Positions 52,392-60,248 of a stretch of 64,000 bases of DNA are shown in pieces. Numbering within the stretch: position 1 is the stretch's first letter; the number at the start of each line of letters is the position of its first letter. The notes beneath the pieces were generated by a model. It saw only the letters and a program-made list of their open reading frames with translations. It had not been told where the DNA came from and made no database searches. Both the position numbers and the translations under genes were made by a program. Origin of the DNA: an uncultured Bdellovibrio sp. (GTDB lineage: Bacteria; Bdellovibrionota; Bdellovibrionia; Bdellovibrionales; Bdellovibrionaceae); NCBI GenBank assembly GCA_966211795.1, contig CBIHNW010000025.1, positions 3,787-67,786 of the forward strand. The letters run 5' to 3'.

Positions 52392-52405
52392 CCGGAAAGA
52401 CTAGC

Positions 52406-53386
52406 TTATTTGTCCTGGCTCGGCATGCGTTTTTTGTTTTTGGATCGCTGCGCTTCTTCTTCGCGCACTTCCTCGGCGTTTCCTTTGACCAGGAAGGACT
52501 TTTCCATGGCTTTGATTAGCACCACGGCCTCGTCCAAAGCTTCCAGCGCTCGGCGGCTGGACTGCGGAAGATCGGGCGCAATTTCAGCCAAGGCCGGAAT
52601 CACGACTTTGAACTCTTCCGTTAGCACGGCCAAATTGCCCACAAGCTTTGTCATGTCCTTTGCCATGTGGGGCGCTTCGCGATTGATCTCGGGAATGATT
52701 TGATTGAGCTCTTTCGTCGTCACGGCAAGCTCTTTTAGCACCACGCCCAAGTTTTCATCCTTAGTGGCCTGACGCGAAAGTTTGATCACTTCAAGCGACA
52801 TCGTGTTGAGGCTTTTCAGCAAGGGATCGATGCGGTCAAAGGCATTGATGAAGGCCTGCGTTCGATTTTTATCCAAAAACGCTTCCGCCAGAAACTTGAG
52901 ATTGTCCATCATTCCGCTCATGGTCTTTAAATAAGTGCCAAGCTCGCGGCCACTCATCAGCGTCAAGAGATCCATGCCTTCTTCAGACGCCATCGCGCTG
53001 CCATCGGCCAAGGGGCCGGCGGTGGTTGAGCCCACCGAAATGTCGAGCACGCGATCGCCGATGACGAAAGGTCGAATCAATTGGGCGACCGAATCGGTTT
53101 TAATTTTTCCTTCGAATTTGCTGAGCACGTAGAACTTGACCAAAATGCGGTTGTCGCTCGTCAGCTCCACTTCTTCGACGCTGCCGGCTTTCAGACCTTG
53201 AATCTGAACCGTCGTCCCCGGATGCACGCCATCACCTGAAACAAATGAAGTGGACCAATGAAGTTTGCTATCGAACCAGCCTTGCTTCACGGCGACGCTT
53301 AAAAGCGCCAGCACGAAGCCCGCGATCGAGGCCGCGACAAAAATGCCGGCGACACGTTCAAACTTATTGAACTTCACATGATTCAT
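52406..53386 (-). CDS. MlaD-like MCE-domain protein with a long helical C-terminal extension
   Basis: N-terminal TM anchor and the MCE core GVHPGTTVQIQGLKAGSVEEVEL. ATGA overlap with the upstream gene. Confidence 0.8.
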   Translation of the reverse strand: MNHVKFNKFERVAGIFVAASIAGFVLALLSVAVKQGWFDSKLHWSTSFVSGDGVHPGTTVQIQGLKAGSVEEVELTSDNRILVKFYVLSKFEGKIKTDSVAQLIRPFVIGDRVLDISVGSTTAGPLADGSAMASEEGMDLLTLMSGRELGTYLKTMSGMMDNLKFLAEAFLDKNRTQAFINAFDRIDPLLKSLNTMSLEVIKLSRQATKDENLGVVLKELAVTTKELNQIIPEINREAPHMAKDMTKLVGNLAVLTEEFKVVIPALAEIAPDLPQSSRRALEALDEAVVLIKAMEKSFLVKGNAEEVREEEAQRSKNKKRMPSQDK

Positions 53387-54093
53387 AAACTGACGACTTT
53401 CTTTTCCCCATCGATGACGTCTTGATAAATTGTGCCGCAATCAATGAAAATTTCTTTGTGCGGCAAACAGTTCATCAACTGTTCATCAAAGGAACTGATG
53501 AAGACGTGCTGGGCTTTGTCTTTTTTGCGAAGCTCTTGCACGCAATCGAAAAATTTCAAAATTTGATCCTGACCCAAACCCACGCTCGGATCATCCAAGA
53601 GCAAAACTTGGGGCTCTAACATCAGCGCGCGGATCAGGCACGCCATTTTGCGCACACCACCCGGAACGGTTGAAGGACGCAGGTTTGCAAACTTTTGCAC
53701 GCCCAGCATTCGCATGTACTCGGCTGCCCGATCTTCCGCTTGTGGCTTCGAACAAACCTTATGATACACCAATGGCAGAGTGATATTTTCAAGCAGCGTG
53801 CGGTTGTGCAAAAGCCCGCCGAAATCAAAGCCGTAACCGATGCTGGTGCGGTAGGGAAGAAATTCCTCGAATGACATTTCGGCCACGTTCACGTCGTTGA
53901 TCAGGTACTGACCCTTTTGGGGAACCACGAGCCCCGCCATGATTTGCAAGAGCGACGAGCGGCCCGATCCCGACGAAGCCTTCACCCACACGATTTCATT
54001 CATAGGGAAGTCAAAGTCCACTTGCTCGAACAAGGGCTCTTGGCCCTCGTGGTGAAAGGTCAAGCCTTCGAATTTTAAGCTTTGGATCTTCAT
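53383..54093 (-). CDS. MlaF-like ABC nucleotide-binding-domain protein with degenerate catalytic motifs
   Basis: NBD-length protein colinear with ABC ATPases. Walker A reads SSGSGRSS, the Q-loop region YGFDFGG, the signature VPGGV, Walker B LLLDDP, and the H-loop region FISSFD. Confidence 0.75.
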   Translation of the reverse strand: MKIQSLKFEGLTFHHEGQEPLFEQVDFDFPMNEIVWVKASSGSGRSSLLQIMAGLVVPQKGQYLINDVNVAEMSFEEFLPYRTSIGYGFDFGGLLHNRTLLENITLPLVYHKVCSKPQAEDRAAEYMRMLGVQKFANLRPSTVPGGVRKMACLIRALMLEPQVLLLDDPSVGLGQDQILKFFDCVQELRKKDKAQHVFISSFDEQLMNCLPHKEIFIDCGTIYQDVIDGEKKVVSL

Positions 54094-54908
54094 AGAACCC
54101 CCATTTTCATTAGCTGGCTGAGATAGAAAAGTGACGTCACGGTGAGATTGAAAATAACGACGTAGATGATGGAATTGACCACGGCCTGCGTGGTGACGAT
54201 CGGAACTTCGGTCGGACTGCGCTTCACCGAAAGCCCCTGATAGCAGGACACGACGAAAATGATCATGCCGCTAAAAGTGTTTTTCAAAAGAAAGAGCCAC
54301 ATGTCTTCAAACGCAAAAGCATTGGCCAAAGAATCCAGATAAAAGCTGGTCGGTAGATCATGCAAAAGCTTGGTCAGCAAAAATCCACCCAAAAGCGCCA
54401 TCGCCGTAAAATAAAACGAAAGGCAGATCACGCTGATCACGCCGCCCACCAGTCGCGGAAACACGATGTAACTGAGAGGATTGATGCCCATCGCTTCCAG
54501 CGCTTCGATCTCGCGATTGGCGCGCATGTTGCCGACTTCGCTGGCCACCGCCGTTCCGGACCTGGCAATCACCACCAGCGCCGTCATCAAAGGACCGAGC
54601 TCGCGCACGATGATCGCCACCAAAAGATTGCCGATCATTTGCGTGCCGCCAAACAGATGCAAATTCGAAGACGACTGCAGAATGACGACGCCGCCACTGG
54701 CCAGCGCCAGCACAGTGATCAAAGGCAGAGCTTGAAAACCGGTGAAATAAATCTGTGCCGAAATCACCGAGATGATGGTGCGAAGACCCTGAGATTGATC
54801 GCGCAAAGTTGCACGCAAAGACAGATACACCATCAAAAGAACTTTTGAGGTGTACTCGAGATTGCTAGTCACTGTGCGACCGAGACGGTCAATAGAGGCC
54901 CAAACCAT
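54090..54908 (-). CDS. MlaE-family ABC permease
   Basis: QIYFTGFQALPLI, REIEALEAMGINP and IVFPRL are MlaE hallmarks. ATGA-type overlap with the NBD gene. Confidence 0.85.
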   Translation of the reverse strand: MVWASIDRLGRTVTSNLEYTSKVLLMVYLSLRATLRDQSQGLRTIISVISAQIYFTGFQALPLITVLALASGGVVILQSSSNLHLFGGTQMIGNLLVAIIVRELGPLMTALVVIARSGTAVASEVGNMRANREIEALEAMGINPLSYIVFPRLVGGVISVICLSFYFTAMALLGGFLLTKLLHDLPTSFYLDSLANAFAFEDMWLFLLKNTFSGMIIFVVSCYQGLSVKRSPTEVPIVTTQAVVNSIIYVVIFNLTVTSLFYLSQLMKMGVL

Positions 54909-55605: not shown

Positions 55606-55983
55606 TCACTTGGCGGCGGTCACTTCGATTTCAACGTTCACACCTTTTGGCAAAGCCGCGACCGCAACGGTCGAACGTGCCGGAGGTTGCTCGGTGAAAA
55701 AACGTCCGTAAACTTCGTTCACGGTTTGAAAATCACCCATGCTGGTCAGGTAAATCGTGGTCTTGACGACGTTCTTGAAAGTCAAACCGGCCGCTTGCAA
55801 GACCGCATCGATATTTTTCATCACCAATTCCGCTTGGCCTTTGATGTCGCCAGTGAAAACCTGATTGGTTGCTGGATCCAAAGGAATCTGGCCCGAGCAG
55901 AAAACCAAATTTCCGACTTCGATCGCTTGCGAGTAAGGACCGATTGGAGCTGGAGCGCTATTTGTCAAAATCACTTTTTTCAT
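55606..55983 (-). CDS. ridA: RidA-family reactive-intermediate deaminase
   Basis: APAPIGPYSQAI, FCSGQIP, the C-terminal ARSTVAVAALPKGVNVEIE. Start at the MKKVIL ATG at 55983. Confidence 0.9.
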   Translation of the reverse strand: MKKVILTNSAPAPIGPYSQAIEVGNLVFCSGQIPLDPATNQVFTGDIKGQAELVMKNIDAVLQAAGLTFKNVVKTTIYLTSMGDFQTVNEVYGRFFTEQPPARSTVAVAALPKGVNVEIEVTAAK

Positions 55984-56008
55984 GTTCAACCTCGATTGCA
56001 ATGATCGA

Positions 56009-56500
56009 TTAAAAGTAAAAAACAATTCCGGCATTCAAGAAAGAATCACCCAGCGTGCGAAAACGAGTTTTCTTCACCGTCGTGATCCCCATGCCTGTCT
56101 CAAAATTAAATCCCAAAGAATCAAGCCCCGGCAGAAAAAATTCGCCACCCACCACGGCCGCCACTTCGTAGCCCGAGTCCTTGCTGCTGGCAACCTCTTG
56201 ATTGACCATCGCCACGTGCCCGCCGCCAAAGAAATTCATATTTTCTTCCTTGAAGATCAAGCGCCGGACGCCACCAGCAAAGGCAAATTTCGAGTTGTTA
56301 TCTTCCGTGTCCACGCCCAAAGATCCAAAGACGTTAAAATCCGGAGATGGATAATAGAAAATCGCGACACTTGGAAGGCTCATGGTCACCAACGAGTTGC
56401 GATAGCCCACGCCCATACGGCTGGTGAGGTCCTTCGCATTTGCGGTTGCCGCCAATCCCAATGCGCTGATGAAAATACTGAATGCCAAAAAGAATCTCAT
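56009..56500 (-). CDS. small outer-membrane beta-barrel protein
   Basis: Signal peptide MRFFLAFSIFISALGLAATANA. Alternating strands and a C-terminal ...GIVFYF. Confidence 0.65.
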   Translation of the reverse strand: MRFFLAFSIFISALGLAATANAKDLTSRMGVGYRNSLVTMSLPSVAIFYYPSPDFNVFGSLGVDTEDNNSKFAFAGGVRRLIFKEENMNFFGGGHVAMVNQEVASSKDSGYEVAAVVGGEFFLPGLDSLGFNFETGMGITTVKKTRFRTLGDSFLNAGIVFYF

Positions 56501-56653
56501 GTCGTCTCCGTGCTGTATCAAAAAATGAACCCCTTTATTCAAGCGGCACTTGTCAAAATCAGCAACGAAAATGGCGTGAGGCAACATGTCATGCCACCAC
56601 TATGGACAAGCGCCAGGTCCTCAAGTACGGTTTTGAGAAGTCATTTTCAATGT

Positions 56654-56729
56654 GGGCCTGTAGCGCAGCTGGGAGCGCGCTTGCATGGCATGCAAGAGGT
56701 CGTCGGTTCAATCCCGATCAGGTCCACCA
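56654..56729 (+). tRNA. tRNA-Ala (anticodon GGC)
   Basis: Cloverleaf folded by hand: acceptor GGGCCTG/CAGGTCC with the G3:U70 alanine identity pair, D-stem GCGC/GCGC, anticodon stem CTTGC/GCAAG with loop ATGGCAT, T-arm GTCGG-TTCAATC-CCGAT, and an encoded CCA. Confidence 0.9.
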
Positions 56730-56747
56730 CTTTGTTCAAAGTCGCCT

Positions 56748-57341
56748 ATGCAACAGTTTGCGATCTCCATTTTAGCACTCATGGCGGTTTCACTGGCTGG
56801 AACTCCATCATTTTCTTCTGATAATGTCTTGCAAGGAAATTGGCAGGCTCAGTGTGCGCCTTTACCGGATCGACATTCGGCCCTTGGCAGCCTTCACTTG
56901 AACGAAGGAACTTTGACAGCTCATTTTGTTCTTTTTGCCGATAAGAGCTGTGAGACGCAAAATCTTACGATCGACATGAATTCTCAATACGTCGTCGTCA
57001 ACTCGCCAGGAATCGTCCGTAACATTGATTTGGTTCCAACTTCAGTTCAAATGACGCTGCTCAATCCTGACGTTGTTCAGTACTATAACAAAAATCAAAT
57101 CTGCAATCTCTCGGGTTGGGAATTGAATCAACCAAAAGACATTTCAGGGGCTAGCTGTCCCGCCTTCCATGCTCCCAAAAATGACCAAATCAATTACGAT
57201 ATTTTTCAAATATCAGCTGGAACTTTGAGATTTGGCGCTTTCCCAAACGCAGGCGCAACGATCCAAGAAGATCGCCCCGCGGACATTCAGAAAAGTCCAG
57301 AATTCAAAATTCAAACAGATCCCCGACCTCCCTATCTCTAA
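56748..57341 (+). CDS. secreted hypothetical protein
   Basis: Signal peptide MQQFAISILALMAVSLAGTPSFS. No family recognised. Confidence 0.55.
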   Translation: MQQFAISILALMAVSLAGTPSFSSDNVLQGNWQAQCAPLPDRHSALGSLHLNEGTLTAHFVLFADKSCETQNLTIDMNSQYVVVNSPGIVRNIDLVPTSVQMTLLNPDVVQYYNKNQICNLSGWELNQPKDISGASCPAFHAPKNDQINYDIFQISAGTLRFGAFPNAGATIQEDRPADIQKSPEFKIQTDPRPPYL

Positions 57342-57420: not shown

Positions 57421-57768
57421 ATGAAGATCTTGATTTTCGCAACCGGCTTGCTTGTTTCGGTAATGGCGATGGCTCAATCTCCGACTGAAAATATCAGCGC
57501 GCAAATGGCCCAACAGGGGTGCGTCCCGCATCGGGATCAAAATGGCGAGATCTCTCGGCTCGATTGCAACAAACAAACCGGCAAGCAATATCAAATGCTC
57601 GGCGTCCGCAAATCAAATCAGCTCTTGCGAACAAGCCCAAATCAAAATGACCTCGATCAGAATTTTCAAAAGAGTTTAAGAAACAGCAGCCCCCAAGTTC
57701 AGCAAGCCTATTTAAAAGCGGCAAAAGAGCTCGAAGAGAAGAAAAAAATCGAATCTGAAAATCGATAA
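57421..57768 (+). CDS. small secreted hypothetical protein
   Basis: AGGAGG RBS. Signal peptide MKILIFATGLLVSVMAMAQS. Confidence 0.55.
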   Translation: MKILIFATGLLVSVMAMAQSPTENISAQMAQQGCVPHRDQNGEISRLDCNKQTGKQYQMLGVRKSNQLLRTSPNQNDLDQNFQKSLRNSSPQVQQAYLKAAKELEEKKKIESENR

Positions 57769-57973
57769 GATATGGGAGCCAACAAAATCTCGATTTCGGC
57801 ACTTCTTCTGTCGTTGGCGTAGTCATTTCGACGGAATGAGATTTTCTGAATTACAAACATTAGCACCCCGATCAACGTAGCATCCGTCAAACCGAACTAT
57901 GCCTTGGGTATTGACTCTGGAATACTCATTGCAAGATGGGCCGCTGGAATCAAATCGGCACCAGGGGGTCACT

Positions 57974-58492
57974 TTGAAAATTCGAAATTTTATTTTTGCT
58001 ATCGCATTTTTTCTTCTCGCCTATTTAACTGCAAGCGCCTGCCCATCCATCTGTGGCTCGCCAACCTGCAGCGGCTATGATGGTCCCGGCGGCCCATGCT
58101 ACAGCGGTCCCGGCGGACCCATGTATGCCGGACCCGGTGGCGCCATGTATGATGGCCCCGGCGGGCCTCGGTACTCAGGTCCCGGTGGTGCGTGCTACGA
58201 CGGCCCCGGCGGAGCCTGTTATGCGGGTCCTGGCGGACCTGATGATTCGGGCCCGGGCGGCGCATGTTACGACGGTCCCGGTGGACCTCGATATTCGGGC
58301 CCCGGTGGTGCGTGCTACGATGGACCGGGCGGACCGCTTTATGATGGTCCCGGTGGCCCCCGATATGACGGCCCTGGTGGCACTTGCTACGACGGACCGG
58401 GCGGCAATTGTTATAGCGGCCCCGGGGTTTACGGATCTGGCGCTCACTGCCCTCGCATCTGCACCAATCCTTGTCCCTGCCCAAACAACTAA
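57974..58492 (+). CDS. secreted GPGGxxYx octapeptide-repeat protein with Cys-rich caps
   Basis: TTG start 5 nt after AGGGGG. Signal peptide (M)KIRNFIFAIAFFLLAYLTASA. Then come 14 consecutive GPGG-x-x-Y-x units flanked by CPSICGSPTCSG and CPRICTNPCPCPNN. Confidence 0.6.
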   Translation: MKIRNFIFAIAFFLLAYLTASACPSICGSPTCSGYDGPGGPCYSGPGGPMYAGPGGAMYDGPGGPRYSGPGGACYDGPGGACYAGPGGPDDSGPGGACYDGPGGPRYSGPGGACYDGPGGPLYDGPGGPRYDGPGGTCYDGPGGNCYSGPGVYGSGAHCPRICTNPCPCPNN

Positions 58493-58566
58493 GCGTTGAA
58501 TCCGACATCGTTCCCAATCCATGTTCAGAAACGCTACGGACAAAAAATTTATTTTACACAACGAAG

Positions 58567-58596
58567 ACAGGCTCCTCAAACGAATGAGCCTGTTTT
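58567..58596 (+). terminator. possible terminator hairpin
   Basis: ACAGGCTC-11 nt-GAGCCTGT followed by TTTC. The T-tail is weak. Confidence 0.35.
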
Positions 58597-58882
58597 CAAT
58601 TACGCTCTTTGTTTGGCGCACTAGCGAACCTAATCTTCGACCTTAATGCAGACATGCGATTCAGGAGATTTGAATGGACCTTCAGACGAACGAAGCAATT
58701 CAAATGGATTGCTAAACGCAGGTTCGTTGGCGAAGCCGAACTAGATGTACTCATCGTCTCCTCAATGGTTAACACCTCTAACCCACTATTGCAGTCGAGC
58801 GCAGGCGCACGAATGAGCTGAGCCTCGCCGAACTGCTGGGCGATCGCCATGCATTCCCTTTTGGGGTGTACGGAGTATTCTT

Positions 58883-58935
58883 AAACAATAACACCCGGGT
58901 AATATTGACTTTATATTACCCGGGTGTTATTGTTT
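58883..58935. promoter_or_regulatory. perfect 23-bp inverted repeat containing two ACCCGGGT operator sites, overlapping the methyltransferase promoter
   Basis: AAACAATAACACCCGGGTAATAT (58883-58905), then TGACTTT, then ATATTACCCGGGTGTTATTGTTT (58913-58935). TTGACT (58905-58910)-17 nt-TATTGT (58928-58933) is embedded. Confidence 0.65.
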
Positions 58936-58941
58936 AGGAGC

Positions 58942-59829
58942 ATGAAAGCTAATAATTTGAAAGCTGATGAGGGTCCCATGGGCGAATTCATTCAACATGT
59001 TTCTGATACCTCTGCTTGGGTCGCACACTATCGTGCGATTGAATCCGAGCGCCCCGACTCCTTATTTAATGATCCCTTTGCTCGAATTTTGGTGGGCGAT
59101 CATGCGTTGAGTGTCGAGAAACTACAGTCTGAAGCGACAAAGTGGACTCGTTGGACAGTCGTGATGCGCACTTACATCATCGACCAAATGATCCAGGATC
59201 TGATTTCAAAGGGAGTCACCACATTTTTAAATCTGGGTGCAGGACTGGATAGCCGCCCTTATCGGATGAGCCTCGGAGCTGAAGTTCAGTGGATTGAGGT
59301 GGATTTTCCTCACATCATCGAACACAAGCAAAAGATCCTTCAGAAATTCAGCCCGAGCTGCAAACTGGAAAGTATTGGTCTCGATTTGTCGAACCGGGCT
59401 TTGAGGCTTTCTCTGTTTGAAGAGCTTGCCCACAAGTATCCGCAGATTGCTGTTCTAACTGAAGGAGTTTTGCCTTATCTAACACAGGAACAGGTTTCAG
59501 ATCTATCGGAAGATTTGATTCAGCAATCCAGTTTCAAATACTGGATTTGCGAATACATCTCTAAGAAATCCTATCGATATTTAAAAGATCCAAAGCGAAT
59601 GAAAGCTTTGAAAAATGCTCCATTTGAATTTTACCCGGAAAATTGGATGGGGTTTTTTGAGGAGCGTGGATGGCATCTAACGCAATCGCAGTTTTATACC
59701 GAAATTTCTGAAAAACTTGGACGTCCAACGCCGATACCGAAAGTTTTCAAATTTTTTGAACTCGTAATGGGAAAAAAATGGGCAACCCCTTTTAAGCAAA
59801 TGTCTGGCTTTTTGCTTTGGGAAAGATAA
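58942..59829 (+). CDS. class I SAM-dependent O-methyltransferase (LCM / TIGR00027-like)
   Basis: TSAWVAHYRAIESERPDSLFNDPFA and the SAM motif FLNLGAGLDSRPYR. The start is uncertain (58942, 58978, or the ORF-track GTG at 58924). Confidence 0.8.
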   Translation: MKANNLKADEGPMGEFIQHVSDTSAWVAHYRAIESERPDSLFNDPFARILVGDHALSVEKLQSEATKWTRWTVVMRTYIIDQMIQDLISKGVTTFLNLGAGLDSRPYRMSLGAEVQWIEVDFPHIIEHKQKILQKFSPSCKLESIGLDLSNRALRLSLFEELAHKYPQIAVLTEGVLPYLTQEQVSDLSEDLIQQSSFKYWICEYISKKSYRYLKDPKRMKALKNAPFEFYPENWMGFFEERGWHLTQSQFYTEISEKLGRPTPIPKVFKFFELVMGKKWATPFKQMSGFLLWER

Positions 59830-59873: not shown

Positions 59874-60248
59874 ATGAAGAAGGCGCTCGATTGGCTAGCG
59901 CAATGTATATTTTTCGTACTTCTTTTTTATGTGACAGCCGCTCACGCCGAACCGATCAGCAGCGCAGGACTCATTTGGATCAATGCCAACGAGGCAATGA
60001 AGACTTGCGATCGGATGTTTAGTTCGAGCATCAAAAAGGCTGGTGAAATTGTTCTTGATATTCTGATAGATGAATCCGGATTGGTGAAAAATGCGACCCC
60101 AAATCAAAAGAAGTCTTCTATTAGAAATGAAAAATTAACTTCCTGTGTGATCAACTCTTTTAATGGCCACACTCTTCAAATGGATGCGACGGGAAAAGAG
60201 AAAACTATTTCGGCAACCTTTCAATTTCCAAGAAAATTTGACCAGTAA
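59874..60248 (+). CDS. small secreted protein, possibly with a TonB-C/AgmX-like C-terminal fold
   Basis: Signal peptide ending TAAHA|E. The pattern GEIVLDILIDESGLV...C...TISATFQF loosely resembles TonB_C-type domains. Confidence 0.45.
   Translation: MKKALDWLAQCIFFVLLFYVTAAHAEPISSAGLIWINANEAMKTCDRMFSSSIKKAGEIVLDILIDESGLVKNATPNQKKSSIRNEKLTSCVINSFNGHTLQMDATGKEKTISATFQFPRKFDQ

What the first reader, a model, noticed from the sequence alone, without database searches (positions are those of the whole stretch)
57974..58492. Secreted protein built from 14 tandem GPGGxxYx octapeptides, a silk- or elastomer-like repeat in a bacterium
- After a signal peptide and a CPSICGSPTCSG cap, the sequence runs GPGGPCYS GPGGPMYA GPGGAMYD GPGGPRYS GPGGACYD GPGGACYA GPGGPDDS GPGGACYD GPGGPRYS GPGGACYD GPGGPLYD GPGGPRYD GPGGTCYD GPGGNCYS.
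- It ends with CPRICTNPCPCPNN.
- At the DNA level this is a 24-bp repeat that is not identical between units, so it is probably old and under selection rather than a recent slippage product.
- GPGGX/GPGGY pentapeptides are the beta-spiral elastic modules of spider flagelliform and MaSp2 silks.
- One Tyr in 13 of the 14 units, and a Cys in 7 of them, would permit dityrosine and disulfide cross-linking.
- I know of no described bacterial family with this unit. It may be a structural, adhesive or sheath component.
Basis: partly seen in the sequence, partly recalled or inferred. Interest (0 to 1): 0.65.

Follow-up and report, generated by a model that had tools for sequence, protein, structure and literature searches.

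The report
Exported cysteine-capped GPGGxxYx repeat protein
This is a real gene for a small exported protein made of 14 eight-residue GPGGxxYx repeats between cysteine-rich caps; it belongs to a widespread bacterial domain family that nobody has named, and it looks like a fixed, disulfide-locked fold rather than a silk-like elastomer.

Summary
The ORF at 57974-58492 (+) encodes a signal peptide, a Cys cap, 14 in-phase GPGGxxYx units, and a CPRIC...CPC tail.

**The GPGG frame is the selected one.**
- In the GPGG codons, all variation between units falls at third positions.
- Against the one close ortholog (a Bacteriovoracaceae MAG), pS is 0.76 and pN is 0.22. In the +1 and +2 frames pN exceeds pS.
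- Public metagenome gene calls for this identical DNA used the wrong (+1) frame, so the true protein is missing from protein databases.

**It is not an orphan.**
- Hundreds of unnamed relatives share one architecture: an export signal, a CxCxGY cap, about 11 full units, and a GPGGtGxxCPxxC[KR] end. They occur mostly in Pseudomonadota, and also in Bdellovibrionota and Acidobacteriota.
- Some relatives carry the module at the C-terminus of TPR or Sel1 lipoproteins.
- No Pfam, NCBIfam, PDB or literature match covers the module.

**The family evidence argues against an elastomer and for a discrete disulfide-stapled domain.**
- The repeat number is fixed.
- Residues and Cys positions are conserved unit by unit.
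- AlphaFold2 models are fairly confident (pLDDT 84) and contain no helix or strand.

No gene neighbour is conserved, so the function remains inferred: an envelope structural or binding module.

The parts
57963..57968 (+). Shine-Dalgarno-like AGGGGG, 5 nt upstream of the TTG start
   Evidence: Read directly from the sequence.
57974..58039 (+). Probable TTG start codon and 22-aa Sec signal peptide, (M)KIRNFIFAIAFFLLAYLTASA, with an AxA cleavage site (ASA|C)
   Evidence: Translation. It aligns with the ATG-initiated signal peptide MKMKFFLSSLLLTFTLSGLSAFA|C of the L009 ortholog. AF2 models residues 2-19 as the only long helix. Cleavage itself is inferred.
58040..58081 (+). N-terminal Cys cap CPSICGSPTCSGYD (3 Cys). 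It ends in C-x-G-Y-x, like the family's CxCxGYx cap
58082..58417 (+). 14 in-phase GPGGxxYx octapeptide units (24 nt each), with Cys at position 6 in units 1, 5, 6, 8, 10, 13 and 14
   Evidence: Variation limited to third codon positions is shown.
58418..58489 (+). C-terminal cap GPGVYGSGAHCPRICTNPCPCPNN. It holds a degenerate 15th unit, the family's CPxxC motif, and an extra CPC (4 Cys)
58490..58492 (+). TAA stop codon
58563..58597 (.). Stable hairpin between this gene and the convergent 84-aa ORF. It is a likely (bidirectional) transcription terminator
   Evidence: Fold: -19.6 kcal/mol, z = -4.8, with 0 of 200 shuffles folding as well. The simple terminator scan missed it. Function is inferred.
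58053..58499 (+). Overlapping +1-frame ORF (148 aa, Ala/Pro/Val-rich). Public gene callers annotated this instead of the true gene. It is not part of the feature and is listed as a mis-call
   Evidence: L002 gene 6180-6626 and L001 gene 6207-6626 map to this frame. In this frame pN (0.39) exceeds pS (0.26).

Best explanation
The gene encodes a small exported protein, about 150 aa when mature. It is a divergent member of a widespread but undescribed bacterial domain family.

**Family architecture.**
- A Sec or lipoprotein signal, sometimes followed by a TPR/Sel1 domain.
- A Cys cap ending in C-x-G-Y-x.
- A run of GPGGxxYx octapeptides.
- A CPxxC C-terminal cap.

**Proposed mechanism.**
- After export and cleavage at ASA|C, the chain folds in the oxidising periplasm into a compact, non-helical, non-sheet repeat structure.
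- Each unit probably forms a GPGG turn followed by a short extended xxYx segment.
- The 14 cysteines (3 in the N-cap, 7 at repeat position 6, 4 in the C-cap) form disulfides that staple the caps to the first and last units and lock neighbouring units together.
- The 13 regularly spaced tyrosines form the core or a ladder-like surface.
- It would act as a rigid, protease-resistant structural or binding module of the cell envelope, not as an extensible elastomer.

**What is shown.** The frame, selection, an N-terminal hydrophobic signal-type segment in this protein and most relatives, family membership, the fixed Cys scaffold in relatives, the absence of predicted alpha/beta structure at fairly high confidence, and the absence of conserved partners.

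**What is inferred.** Export itself and signal-peptide cleavage, disulfide formation, the turn/extended geometry, the role of the Tyr residues, and the envelope structural or binding function.
For: **Frame and selection.**
- All variation in the GPGG codons is at third positions.
- Against the L009 ortholog pS = 0.76 and pN = 0.22 in this frame. In the +1 and +2 frames pN exceeds pS.

**Family size and spread.**
- 229 hits in the first protein search, all unnamed.
- A profile search found 735 representatives at E<=1e-3 and 278 at E<=1e-10. A few of the hits inspected are unrelated low-complexity proteins.
- 78 genome loci and 80 metagenome loci.

**Export.**
- 73 of 77 genome loci have a hydrophobic signal segment upstream of the module.
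- In 60 of them it lies within 30 aa of unit 1. 15 look like lipoprotein signals.

**Fixed architecture.**
- 50 of 80 complete modules have 11 full units.
- The Cys pattern is C..C.....CC in 42 of 50. Short forms show C..CC in 11 of 12.
- 62 of 80 modules have an even Cys count.
- Units keep their own residues across taxa, for example Glu as the commonest residue at position 6 of unit 5 and Arg in unit 7.
- The window protein keeps C-x-G-Y-x, Cys in the first and the last two units, and CPxxC.

**Structure.**
- The AF2 model of the canonical module has mean pLDDT 84 (85-89 across the repeats) with no strand and only one 3-residue helical turn in the C-cap.
- In the window protein the only long helix is the signal peptide and the only other helical element is a 3-residue turn in the C-cap. 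pLDDT is 78-93 at both ends of the array.

**Domain behaviour.** The module occurs at the C-terminus of TPR/Sel1 lipoproteins and as a tandem double module.
Against: - No experimental data exist for any member.
- The AF2 model of the window protein has pLDDT below 50 for residues 67-88, and pTM is only 0.43-0.57.
- 18 of 80 modules have an odd Cys count by my regex.
- In the window's own subfamily the unit number is not fixed: 14 here against 12 in L009, with traces of 4- to 5-unit block duplications. This is more plastic than the canonical family.
- No conserved neighbour gives a functional anchor.
- There is no direct evidence of transcription or translation, and no sigma-70-like promoter was found on the + strand.
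Confidence: 0.6

Rival explanations
1. Silk-, resilin- or elastin-like elastomer. The GPGG turns would form an extensible beta-spiral. Secreted monomers would be cross-linked through dityrosine and disulfide bonds into an elastic sheath, matrix or adhesive.
For: - The GPGG motif plus a regular Tyr resembles spider GPGGX/GPGGY and resilin motifs (from established knowledge; not homology).
- AF2 models show no helix or strand in the repeats.
- Tyr is present in 13 of 14 units and Cys in 7 of 14.
- The unit number differs between the window (14) and its ortholog (12).
Against: - The protein is short (about 150 aa) and has conserved Cys caps at both ends.
- In the family the unit number and the Cys positions are fixed, and units keep individual identities across phyla.
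- pLDDT of about 85 is atypical for disordered elastomers.
- No peroxidase, laccase or other cross-linking enzyme recurs nearby.
- The period is 8, not 5, and there are no spidroin terminal domains.
Confidence: 0.12
2. Periplasmic metal-binding or oxidant-scavenging protein. Cys or Met at repeat position 6, Tyr at 7, Asp at 8 and the CxC/CPxxC caps would bind Cu, Zn, Cd or Ca, or act as sacrificial redox residues. Known analogues are the octapeptide Cu-binding repeats of Pseudomonas CopA/CopB and the prion octarepeat.
For: - Position 6 is Cys, Met or Ala, and some relatives carry Met in most units (P0001, P0004).
- Asp is common at position 8.
- Clustered CxC and CPxxC motifs are present.
- The protein has an export signal, pointing to the periplasm or beyond.
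Against: - No metal-resistance, efflux or redox genes recur next to the 78 genome loci.
- The commonest residue at position 6 in canonical units is Ala.
- Cys is confined to the same few units and the count is mostly even, which fits structural disulfides better.
- There are no His residues in the repeats.
Confidence: 0.13
3. Not this gene. The region would be non-coding repeat DNA, or the real product would be one of the overlapping ORFs: the +1-frame 148-aa ORF chosen by public gene callers, or an antisense ORF of 148 or 172 aa.
For: - All frames are open across the GC-rich repeat.
- Gene callers chose the +1 frame in two assemblies.
- One antisense frame also shows pS above pN (0.66 against 0.23).
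Against: - Variation between units is silent only in the GPGG frame.
- The +1 and +2 frames have pN above pS.
- Only the GPGG frame has a signal peptide, conserved non-repeat Cys caps and hundreds of homologs with the same architecture.
- The antisense signal is the expected mirror of sense-strand wobble variation. That frame has no start context, no signal peptide and no conserved ends.
Confidence: 0.02
4. Ribosomally made peptide precursor (RiPP or bacteriocin), with the repeats as core peptides for Cys/Tyr-modifying enzymes.
For: The product is small, Cys-rich and repetitive.
Against: - It has a Sec signal peptide rather than a leader peptide.
- No radical-SAM enzyme, cyclase, protease or ABC exporter recurs in the flanks of 78 loci. 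The most frequent Pfam family among 114 flanking genes is Sel1, in only 3.
- The module is also fused to TPR/Sel1 lipoproteins.
Confidence: 0.03

Closest known systems
Unnamed family of hypothetical proteins with the architecture CxCxGY - (GPGGxxYx)n - GPGGtGxxCPxxC[KR] (for example P0033, P0032, P0007; loci L010-L086 in Massilia, Janthinobacterium, Pseudoxanthomonas, Halomonas and others)
   Same: - Export signal.
- C-x-G-Y-x immediately before unit 1.
- 8-residue GPGGxxYx units.
- Cys at position 6 of the first and the last two units.
- CPxxC after the last unit.
- Module at the C-terminus.
   Different: - 14 units here instead of 11 full units.
- Seven repeat Cys instead of four.
- N-cap CPSIC-x4-C instead of CxC.
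- An extra CPC tail.
- Only one other sequence shares these caps: L009, a Bacteriovoracaceae MAG with 12 units.
Spider flagelliform / MaSp2 silk GPGGX and GPGQQ modules, and resilin or HMW-glutenin-type elastomers
   Same: - A GPGG turn motif with a nearby Tyr.
- Gly/Pro richness.
- No predicted helix or sheet.
   Different: - Period 8, not 5.
- 14 units in a 150-aa protein rather than hundreds of units in proteins above 200 kDa.
- Cys caps, and a fixed unit number in the family.
- Ordered-type AF2 confidence.
- No spidroin terminal domains.
- No homology: the resemblance is a motif only.
Polyproline-II / polyglycine-II bundle proteins: snow-flea antifreeze protein and the mycobacterial PE_PGRS PGRS domain (PMC13243192)
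   Same: - Gly-rich.
- Neither alpha nor beta.
- Small, with disulfide stapling (snow-flea antifreeze protein).
- A bacterial exported repeat domain (PGRS).
   Different: - Those proteins have a triplet (GGX/GXX) periodicity that puts Gly on one face. Here Gly is at positions 1, 3 and 4 of an 8-residue unit, and a bulky Tyr sits in every unit.
- Foldseek found no PDB match at all, although Foldseek is weak on coil-only folds.
RTX nonapeptide beta-roll (GGxGxDxUx)
   Same: Short Gly/Asp-rich tandem repeats in exported Gram-negative proteins. The turn-plus-short-segment logic is similar.
   Different: - 9-residue units with a Ca-binding Asp.
- Beta strands that DSSP detects.
- Type I secretion signal rather than a Sec signal peptide.
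- No HemolysinCabind Pfam hit.
Octapeptide metal-binding repeats (prion PHGGGWGQ; Pseudomonas syringae CopA/CopB DHSQMQGM) - from my own knowledge
   Same: Eight-residue period. Gly-rich with one aromatic residue (prion), or periplasmic and Met-containing (Cop).
   Different: - No His.
- Cys caps are present.
- No metal-resistance gene context.
- No sequence relationship.

Membership tests
Unnamed Cys-capped GPGGxxYx repeat-domain family (defined here) | N-terminal Sec or lipoprotein export signal upstream of the module | tested here: met
   The window protein has (M)KIRNFIFAIAFFLLAYLTASA|C. 73 of 77 genome relatives have a comparable hydrophobic segment.
Unnamed Cys-capped GPGGxxYx repeat-domain family (defined here) | Cys cap ending in C-x-G-Y-x directly before unit 1 (canonical form C-x-C-x-G-Y-x) | tested here: met
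   The window has C-S-G-Y-D before unit 1. The CxC is replaced by C-x4-C and there is one extra Cys (CPSICGSPTCSGYD). This is therefore a variant cap.
Unnamed Cys-capped GPGGxxYx repeat-domain family (defined here) | At least 4 in-phase 8-residue G-P-G-G-x-x-[YF]-x units | tested here: met
   14 units with exact spacing of 8, and Tyr in 13 of them. 203 of 232 retrieved relatives meet the same rule.
Unnamed Cys-capped GPGGxxYx repeat-domain family (defined here) | Cys at repeat position 6 in the first unit and the last two units | tested here: met
   The window pattern is C...CC.C.C..CC. The canonical pattern is C..C.....CC in 42 of 50.
Unnamed Cys-capped GPGGxxYx repeat-domain family (defined here) | CPxxC shortly after the last unit, at or near the C-terminus | tested here: met
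   CPRIC lies 10 residues after unit 14, followed by a 9-residue extension TNPCPCPNN.
Spidroins (flagelliform / MaSp2) | Long arrays of GPGGX/GPGQQ pentapeptides | tested here: not met
   The period is exactly 8 residues (24 nt), with only 14 units.
Spidroins (flagelliform / MaSp2) | Conserved non-repetitive spidroin N- and C-terminal domains | tested here: not met
   The Pfam scan gave no spidroin domain. The only hit was a sub-threshold DUF3432 match (E = 0.009, 16.7 bits against a cut-off of 26.7).
Collagen-like triple helix | Gly at every third residue (GXY)n | tested here: not met
   Gly is at positions 1, 3 and 4 of an 8-residue unit. There was no Collagen Pfam hit.
RTX beta-roll | GGxGxDxUx nonapeptides (Pfam HemolysinCabind), secreted without a Sec signal | tested here: not met
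   No Pfam hit. The period is 8, a Sec signal peptide is present, and AF2/DSSP shows no strands.
Polyproline-II / polyglycine-II bundles (snow-flea antifreeze protein, PGRS) | Triplet GGX/GXX periodicity along each helix | tested here: not met
   The 8-residue period is not a multiple of 3, and no constant Gly face exists across units.
Polyproline-II / polyglycine-II bundles (snow-flea antifreeze protein, PGRS) | Ordered fold with no alpha-helix or beta-sheet; PPII backbone angles | tested here: inconclusive
   The models have no strand and no helix beyond the signal peptide and a 3-residue turn in the C-cap, at pLDDT about 85. Backbone angles could not be read because coordinates are not returned. 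Foldseek gave 0 PDB hits.
Resilin / elastin-type cross-linked elastomers | Intrinsic disorder and dityrosine or other intermolecular cross-links | not testable with these tools
   AF2 confidence and the fixed architecture argue against disorder. Cross-linking needs biochemistry.

The most novel reading that the evidence does not exclude
The GPGGxxYx module would be a new protein fold. It would be an ordered repeat structure with neither helices nor sheets, built from 8-residue turn/extended units with a tyrosine ladder and clamped by conserved disulfides. It would form a widespread, so far unnamed envelope domain of diderm bacteria, and its members are often missed or mis-framed by gene callers.
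Probability: 0.35. Interest if true: 0.7.

Novelty: new variant of a known kind. Interest (0 to 1): 0.55.

Why it matters
- If the module is an ordered, disulfide-stapled fold without helices or sheets, it would add a new architecture to the very small set of such folds (snow-flea antifreeze protein, PGRS bundles).
- It would define a new domain family present in hundreds of bacterial lineages. These include cultivable genera such as Janthinobacterium, Massilia, Pseudoxanthomonas and Halomonas, where it could be studied.
- Its short, regular, Tyr-rich and Cys-locked units could interest protein designers and materials scientists.
- There is also a practical point. Because all six frames are open across the GC-rich repeat, gene callers picked the wrong frame for this very locus. 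Members of the family are therefore probably under-represented or wrongly translated in protein databases.

Tried and rejected
1. **Family libraries.** Pfam and NCBIfam scans of the window protein and of canonical relatives found no model covering the module.
2. **Solved and predicted structures.** The PDB sequence-profile search gave 0 hits. Foldseek of both AF2 models against the PDB, and of the canonical model against BFVD, gave 0 hits even at E<=10. Foldseek may simply be blind to coil-only folds.
3. **Literature.**
   - No paper holds GPGGPAY, GPGGPCY, GPGGACY, GPGGPMY, YDGPGG or YSGPGG.
   - The GPGG + bacterial search returned only silk and biomaterials papers.
   - The GPGGP + periplasmic search returned nothing.
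4. **Names.** Cluster look-ups for ten NCBI-held relatives gave only 'hypothetical protein'.
5. **Genomic context.**
   - All-against-all BLAST of ORFs within 4 kb of 78 loci found no neighbour shared beyond near-identical genomes.
   - A Pfam scan of 114 immediately flanking genes found at most 3 sharing a family, Sel1.
   - The RiPP, secretion-partner and metal-operon ideas therefore have no support.
6. **Strain comparison of repeat number.** The three other contigs that reach the repeat (two whole, one only its last 112 bp) are 100% identical over it. The metagenome scan found only canonical-type relatives and none of the window's cap type.
7. **Taxonomy of the window.** tblastx of all genome loci against the window showed no informative synteny. 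Assignment to Bdellovibrionota or Bacteriovoracaceae rests only on the best ortholog (L009) and on an AgmX/PglI-type domain next door.
8. **Promoter.** The promoter scan found no + strand sigma-70 site upstream.
9. **C-terminal Lys.** I considered that the C-terminal Lys/Arg of canonical members might be a Braun-lipoprotein-like peptidoglycan attachment site. I rejected this because Arg is about as common as Lys and the window protein ends in Asn.
Full report
**1. The observation**

- It has a hydrophobic N-terminal segment, then CPSICGSPTCSGYD, then 14 units of the form GPGGxxYx at an exact spacing of 8 residues (nt 58082-58417).
- It ends with GPGVYGSGAHCPRICTNPCPCPNN.
- Tyr occurs in 13 of 14 units and Cys in 7 of 14.
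- Tandem Repeats Finder sees the 24-nt period and its multiples (48, 72, 120 nt) at 70-78% matches.
- The local GC peak (65-69% against about 44% in the flanks) is simply the Gly and Pro codons.

**2. Is this the real frame?**

Because the repeat is GC-rich, all frames are open: four other ORFs of 148-172 aa overlap it on the two strands. Three lines of evidence pick the GPGG frame.
- Among the 14 units, the first and second positions of the four GPGG codons never vary, while third positions carry 1.38 bits of entropy. Units are 64% identical in DNA but 73% identical in protein.
- Against the only close ortholog (L009, a Bacteriovoracaceae MAG), the GPGG frame gives pS 0.76 and pN 0.22. The +1 and +2 frames give pN above pS. 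One antisense frame mirrors the sense signal, as expected from shared wobble positions, but it has no start context, no signal peptide and no conserved ends.
- Only this frame yields a signal peptide, conserved non-repeat caps and a large set of homologs.

- It has AGGGGG 5 nt upstream.
- It aligns with the ATG start of the L009 protein, MKMKFFLSSLLLTFTLSGLSAFA|CPSVC....

A stable hairpin at 58563-58597 (-19.6 kcal/mol, z = -4.8) sits between this gene and the convergent downstream ORF, and is a plausible terminator. No sigma-70-type promoter was found on the + strand.

**3. A mis-annotation**

The same DNA occurs in other public contigs. Two ENA contigs carry the whole gene at 100% identity, and a Logan contig that starts inside the repeat matches its last 112 bp. 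In both ENA contigs the gene caller annotated the +1 frame (window 58053/58080-58499), an Ala/Pro/Val-rich artefact. This explains two results: the exact-sequence look-up of the true protein found nothing, and the window's own protein was not among the hits.

**4. It belongs to a large, unnamed family**

- The protein search returned 229 hits, none with a name other than 'hypothetical protein'.
- A profile search of 1.84 billion representatives found 735 hits at E<=1e-3, 278 at E<=1e-10 and 55 at E<=1e-30. A few are unrelated low-complexity proteins.
- Genome and metagenome scans added 78 and 80 loci.
- The named genome records are mostly Pseudomonadota (Massilia, Janthinobacterium, Pseudoxanthomonas, Montanilutibacter, Halomonas, Nitrincola, Polymorphobacter, Beijerinckia and many MAGs).
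- There are also records from Bdellovibrionota, Acidobacteriota, Nitrospina, Omnitrophota and Sulfurovaceae.

The canonical architecture is:
- an export signal;
- a C-x-C-x-G-Y-x cap;
- 11 full GPGGxxYx units;
- a half unit GPGG(T/D/S)G, then x-x-C-P-x-x-C-(K/R) at the C-terminus.

Export and domain behaviour:
- 73 of 77 genome loci have a hydrophobic signal segment upstream. In 60 it ends within 30 aa of unit 1, and 15 look like lipoprotein signals.
- In other members the module is the C-terminal domain of TPR or Sel1-repeat lipoproteins, or follows DUF4124. One protein carries two modules in tandem. It therefore behaves as an autonomous domain.
- No Pfam or NCBIfam model covers it, no PDB sequence matches it, and no paper in the searchable library contains its characteristic strings.

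**5. Where the window protein sits in the family**

It keeps the diagnostic features:
- C-S-G-Y-D before unit 1;
- Cys at position 6 of unit 1 and of the last two units;
- '...CYS GPG...' followed by CPxxC (here CPRIC).

It differs in several ways:
- 14 units rather than 11 full ones;
- seven repeat Cys rather than four;
- an enlarged N-cap (CPSIC-x4-C) and an added CPC tail, giving 14 Cys in total.

Only the L009 protein shares these caps (CPSVCTSVC ... CPSICQGSCPCK), and it has 12 units. None of the 80 metagenome loci does. TRF's 120-nt period, and the repeated four-unit block PMYD-PRYx-ACYD-ACYx in L009, show that this branch has grown by multi-unit duplications.

**6. Folded domain or elastomer?**

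The family data favour a discrete fold.
- Among 80 non-redundant complete modules, 50 have exactly 11 full units.
- The Cys pattern at position 6 is C..C.....CC in 42 of those 50. The short five-unit form is C..CC in 11 of 12.
- The Cys scaffold at both ends is therefore fixed, and only the Cys-free middle changes in length.
- 62 of 80 modules have an even Cys count, most often 8.
- Individual units keep their own residues across taxa. In the 22 eleven-unit modules, the commonest residue at position 6 is Glu in unit 5 (10 of 22) and Arg in unit 7 (11 of 22). This is not what concerted, interchangeable elastomer repeats show.

The AlphaFold2 results point the same way.
- The canonical module has mean pLDDT 84.2, with 85-89 across all repeats and pTM 0.57. 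It has no strand, and its only helical element is a 3-residue turn in the C-cap.
- The window protein has mean pLDDT 72.5. The only long helix is the signal peptide, and the only other helical element is a 3-residue turn in the C-cap.
- In the window protein pLDDT is 78-93 at both ends of the array and below 50 for residues 67-88. That is where it has more units than most sequences in its alignment.
- Foldseek found nothing in the PDB or BFVD.
- The tools do not return coordinates. I therefore cannot say whether the backbone is a beta-turn spiral, polyproline-II-like or something else, nor check the disulfide geometry.

**7. Function**

- Genomic context is uninformative. No ORF family recurs within 4 kb of the 78 loci beyond near-identical genomes.
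- Among 114 immediately flanking genes, the most frequent Pfam family (Sel1) occurs only three times.
- The window's own neighbours are not shared with relatives. They are a tRNA-Ala, small secreted hypothetical proteins, an LCM/TIGR00027-type methyltransferase and an AgmX/PglI-C-like protein.
- This argues against a RiPP, a dedicated secretion or cross-linking partner, or a metal-resistance operon.
- My best reading is a rigid, disulfide-locked envelope module used for structure or binding, alone or appended to TPR/Sel1 scaffolds. Metal binding or oxidant scavenging is the main functional rival (Cys/Met at position 6, Tyr at 7, Asp at 8). All functional statements are inference.

**8. Comparison with known systems**

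- Spider GPGGX modules and resilin share only the motif. Period, size, caps, fixed length and predicted order all differ, and there are no spidroin domains.
- Collagen (Gly every third residue) and RTX (nonapeptide, Ca-binding Asp, strands, no Sec signal) fail on their defining features.
- The nearest concept is the small class of Gly-rich folds with neither helix nor sheet: snow-flea antifreeze protein, and the PGRS domain described as a PPII bundle in PMC13243192. Those depend on a triplet periodicity that an 8-residue unit with a Tyr cannot reproduce.

**9. Verdict**

- The window protein is a divergent member of a widespread but uncharacterised domain family that may represent a new fold.
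- Interest is moderate. It depends on structural and biochemical follow-up, which is feasible in cultured carriers.

Noticed in passing
window 58053-58499 (+1 frame); L002 6180-6626, L001 6207-6626: Public gene calls for the identical DNA annotate an Ala/Pro/Val-rich +1-frame ORF instead of the GPGG gene. The true protein is therefore absent from the protein collection. Other family members may be affected in the same way.
   Followed up: partly
window 57999-58621, both strands: Besides the true gene, four ORFs of 148-172 aa overlap the repeat (one on the + strand, two on the - strand, plus the extension from ATG 57899). The GGN/CCN-rich sequence lacks stop codons in every frame, which is a trap for ORF-based annotation.
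   Followed up: yes
window 58563-58597: A strong hairpin (-19.6 kcal/mol, z = -4.8) lies between the GPGG gene and the convergent 84-aa ORF (58596-58850, - strand). It has U/T-rich sequence on both sides and is a possible bidirectional terminator. The simple terminator scan missed it because its rule allows a loop of only 3-8 nt.
   Followed up: partly
window 56654-56729: tRNA-Ala(GGC) lies just upstream. Several long spurious ORFs (55982-56821, 56482-56775) run across it.
   Followed up: no
window 56685-57341, 57424-57768, 59874-60248: The GPGG gene sits among other small proteins with signal-peptide-like N-termini and no Pfam family. The 124-aa one has a sub-threshold match to the AgmX/PglI C-terminal domain (NF033768, E = 4.8e-6, 26.6 bits against a cut-off of 40), a model named for myxobacterial proteins (myxo_SS_tail).
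   Followed up: partly
window 58924-59829: A SAM-dependent methyltransferase of the LCM / TIGR00027 type lies immediately downstream (Pfam E = 6e-30). It is not conserved next to relatives of the GPGG gene, so it is probably unrelated.
   Followed up: partly
window ~52400-54900 (L001/L002 533-3035): An MlaD/MlaF(ABC)/MlaE-type lipid-transport operon on the - strand, followed by an FtsX-type permease gene. These indicate a diderm bacterium.
   Followed up: no
family level: P0137, plus the short forms counted: The long (11-unit) and short (5-unit) canonical forms differ by exactly six Cys-free middle units. One protein (P0137) carries a long and a short module in tandem. This hints at a structural super-period of 2, 3 or 6 units.
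   Followed up: partly
family level: P0107, P0053, P0060; P0034, P0042, P0075: Two sister subfamilies share the repeat but have different C-terminal ends and a single-Cys N-cap (xCxGY). One ends in ...Y[KR]GPWGPCITG...W...NCP and the other in ...D[KQ]WNRPSPxC[KRQ].
   Followed up: no
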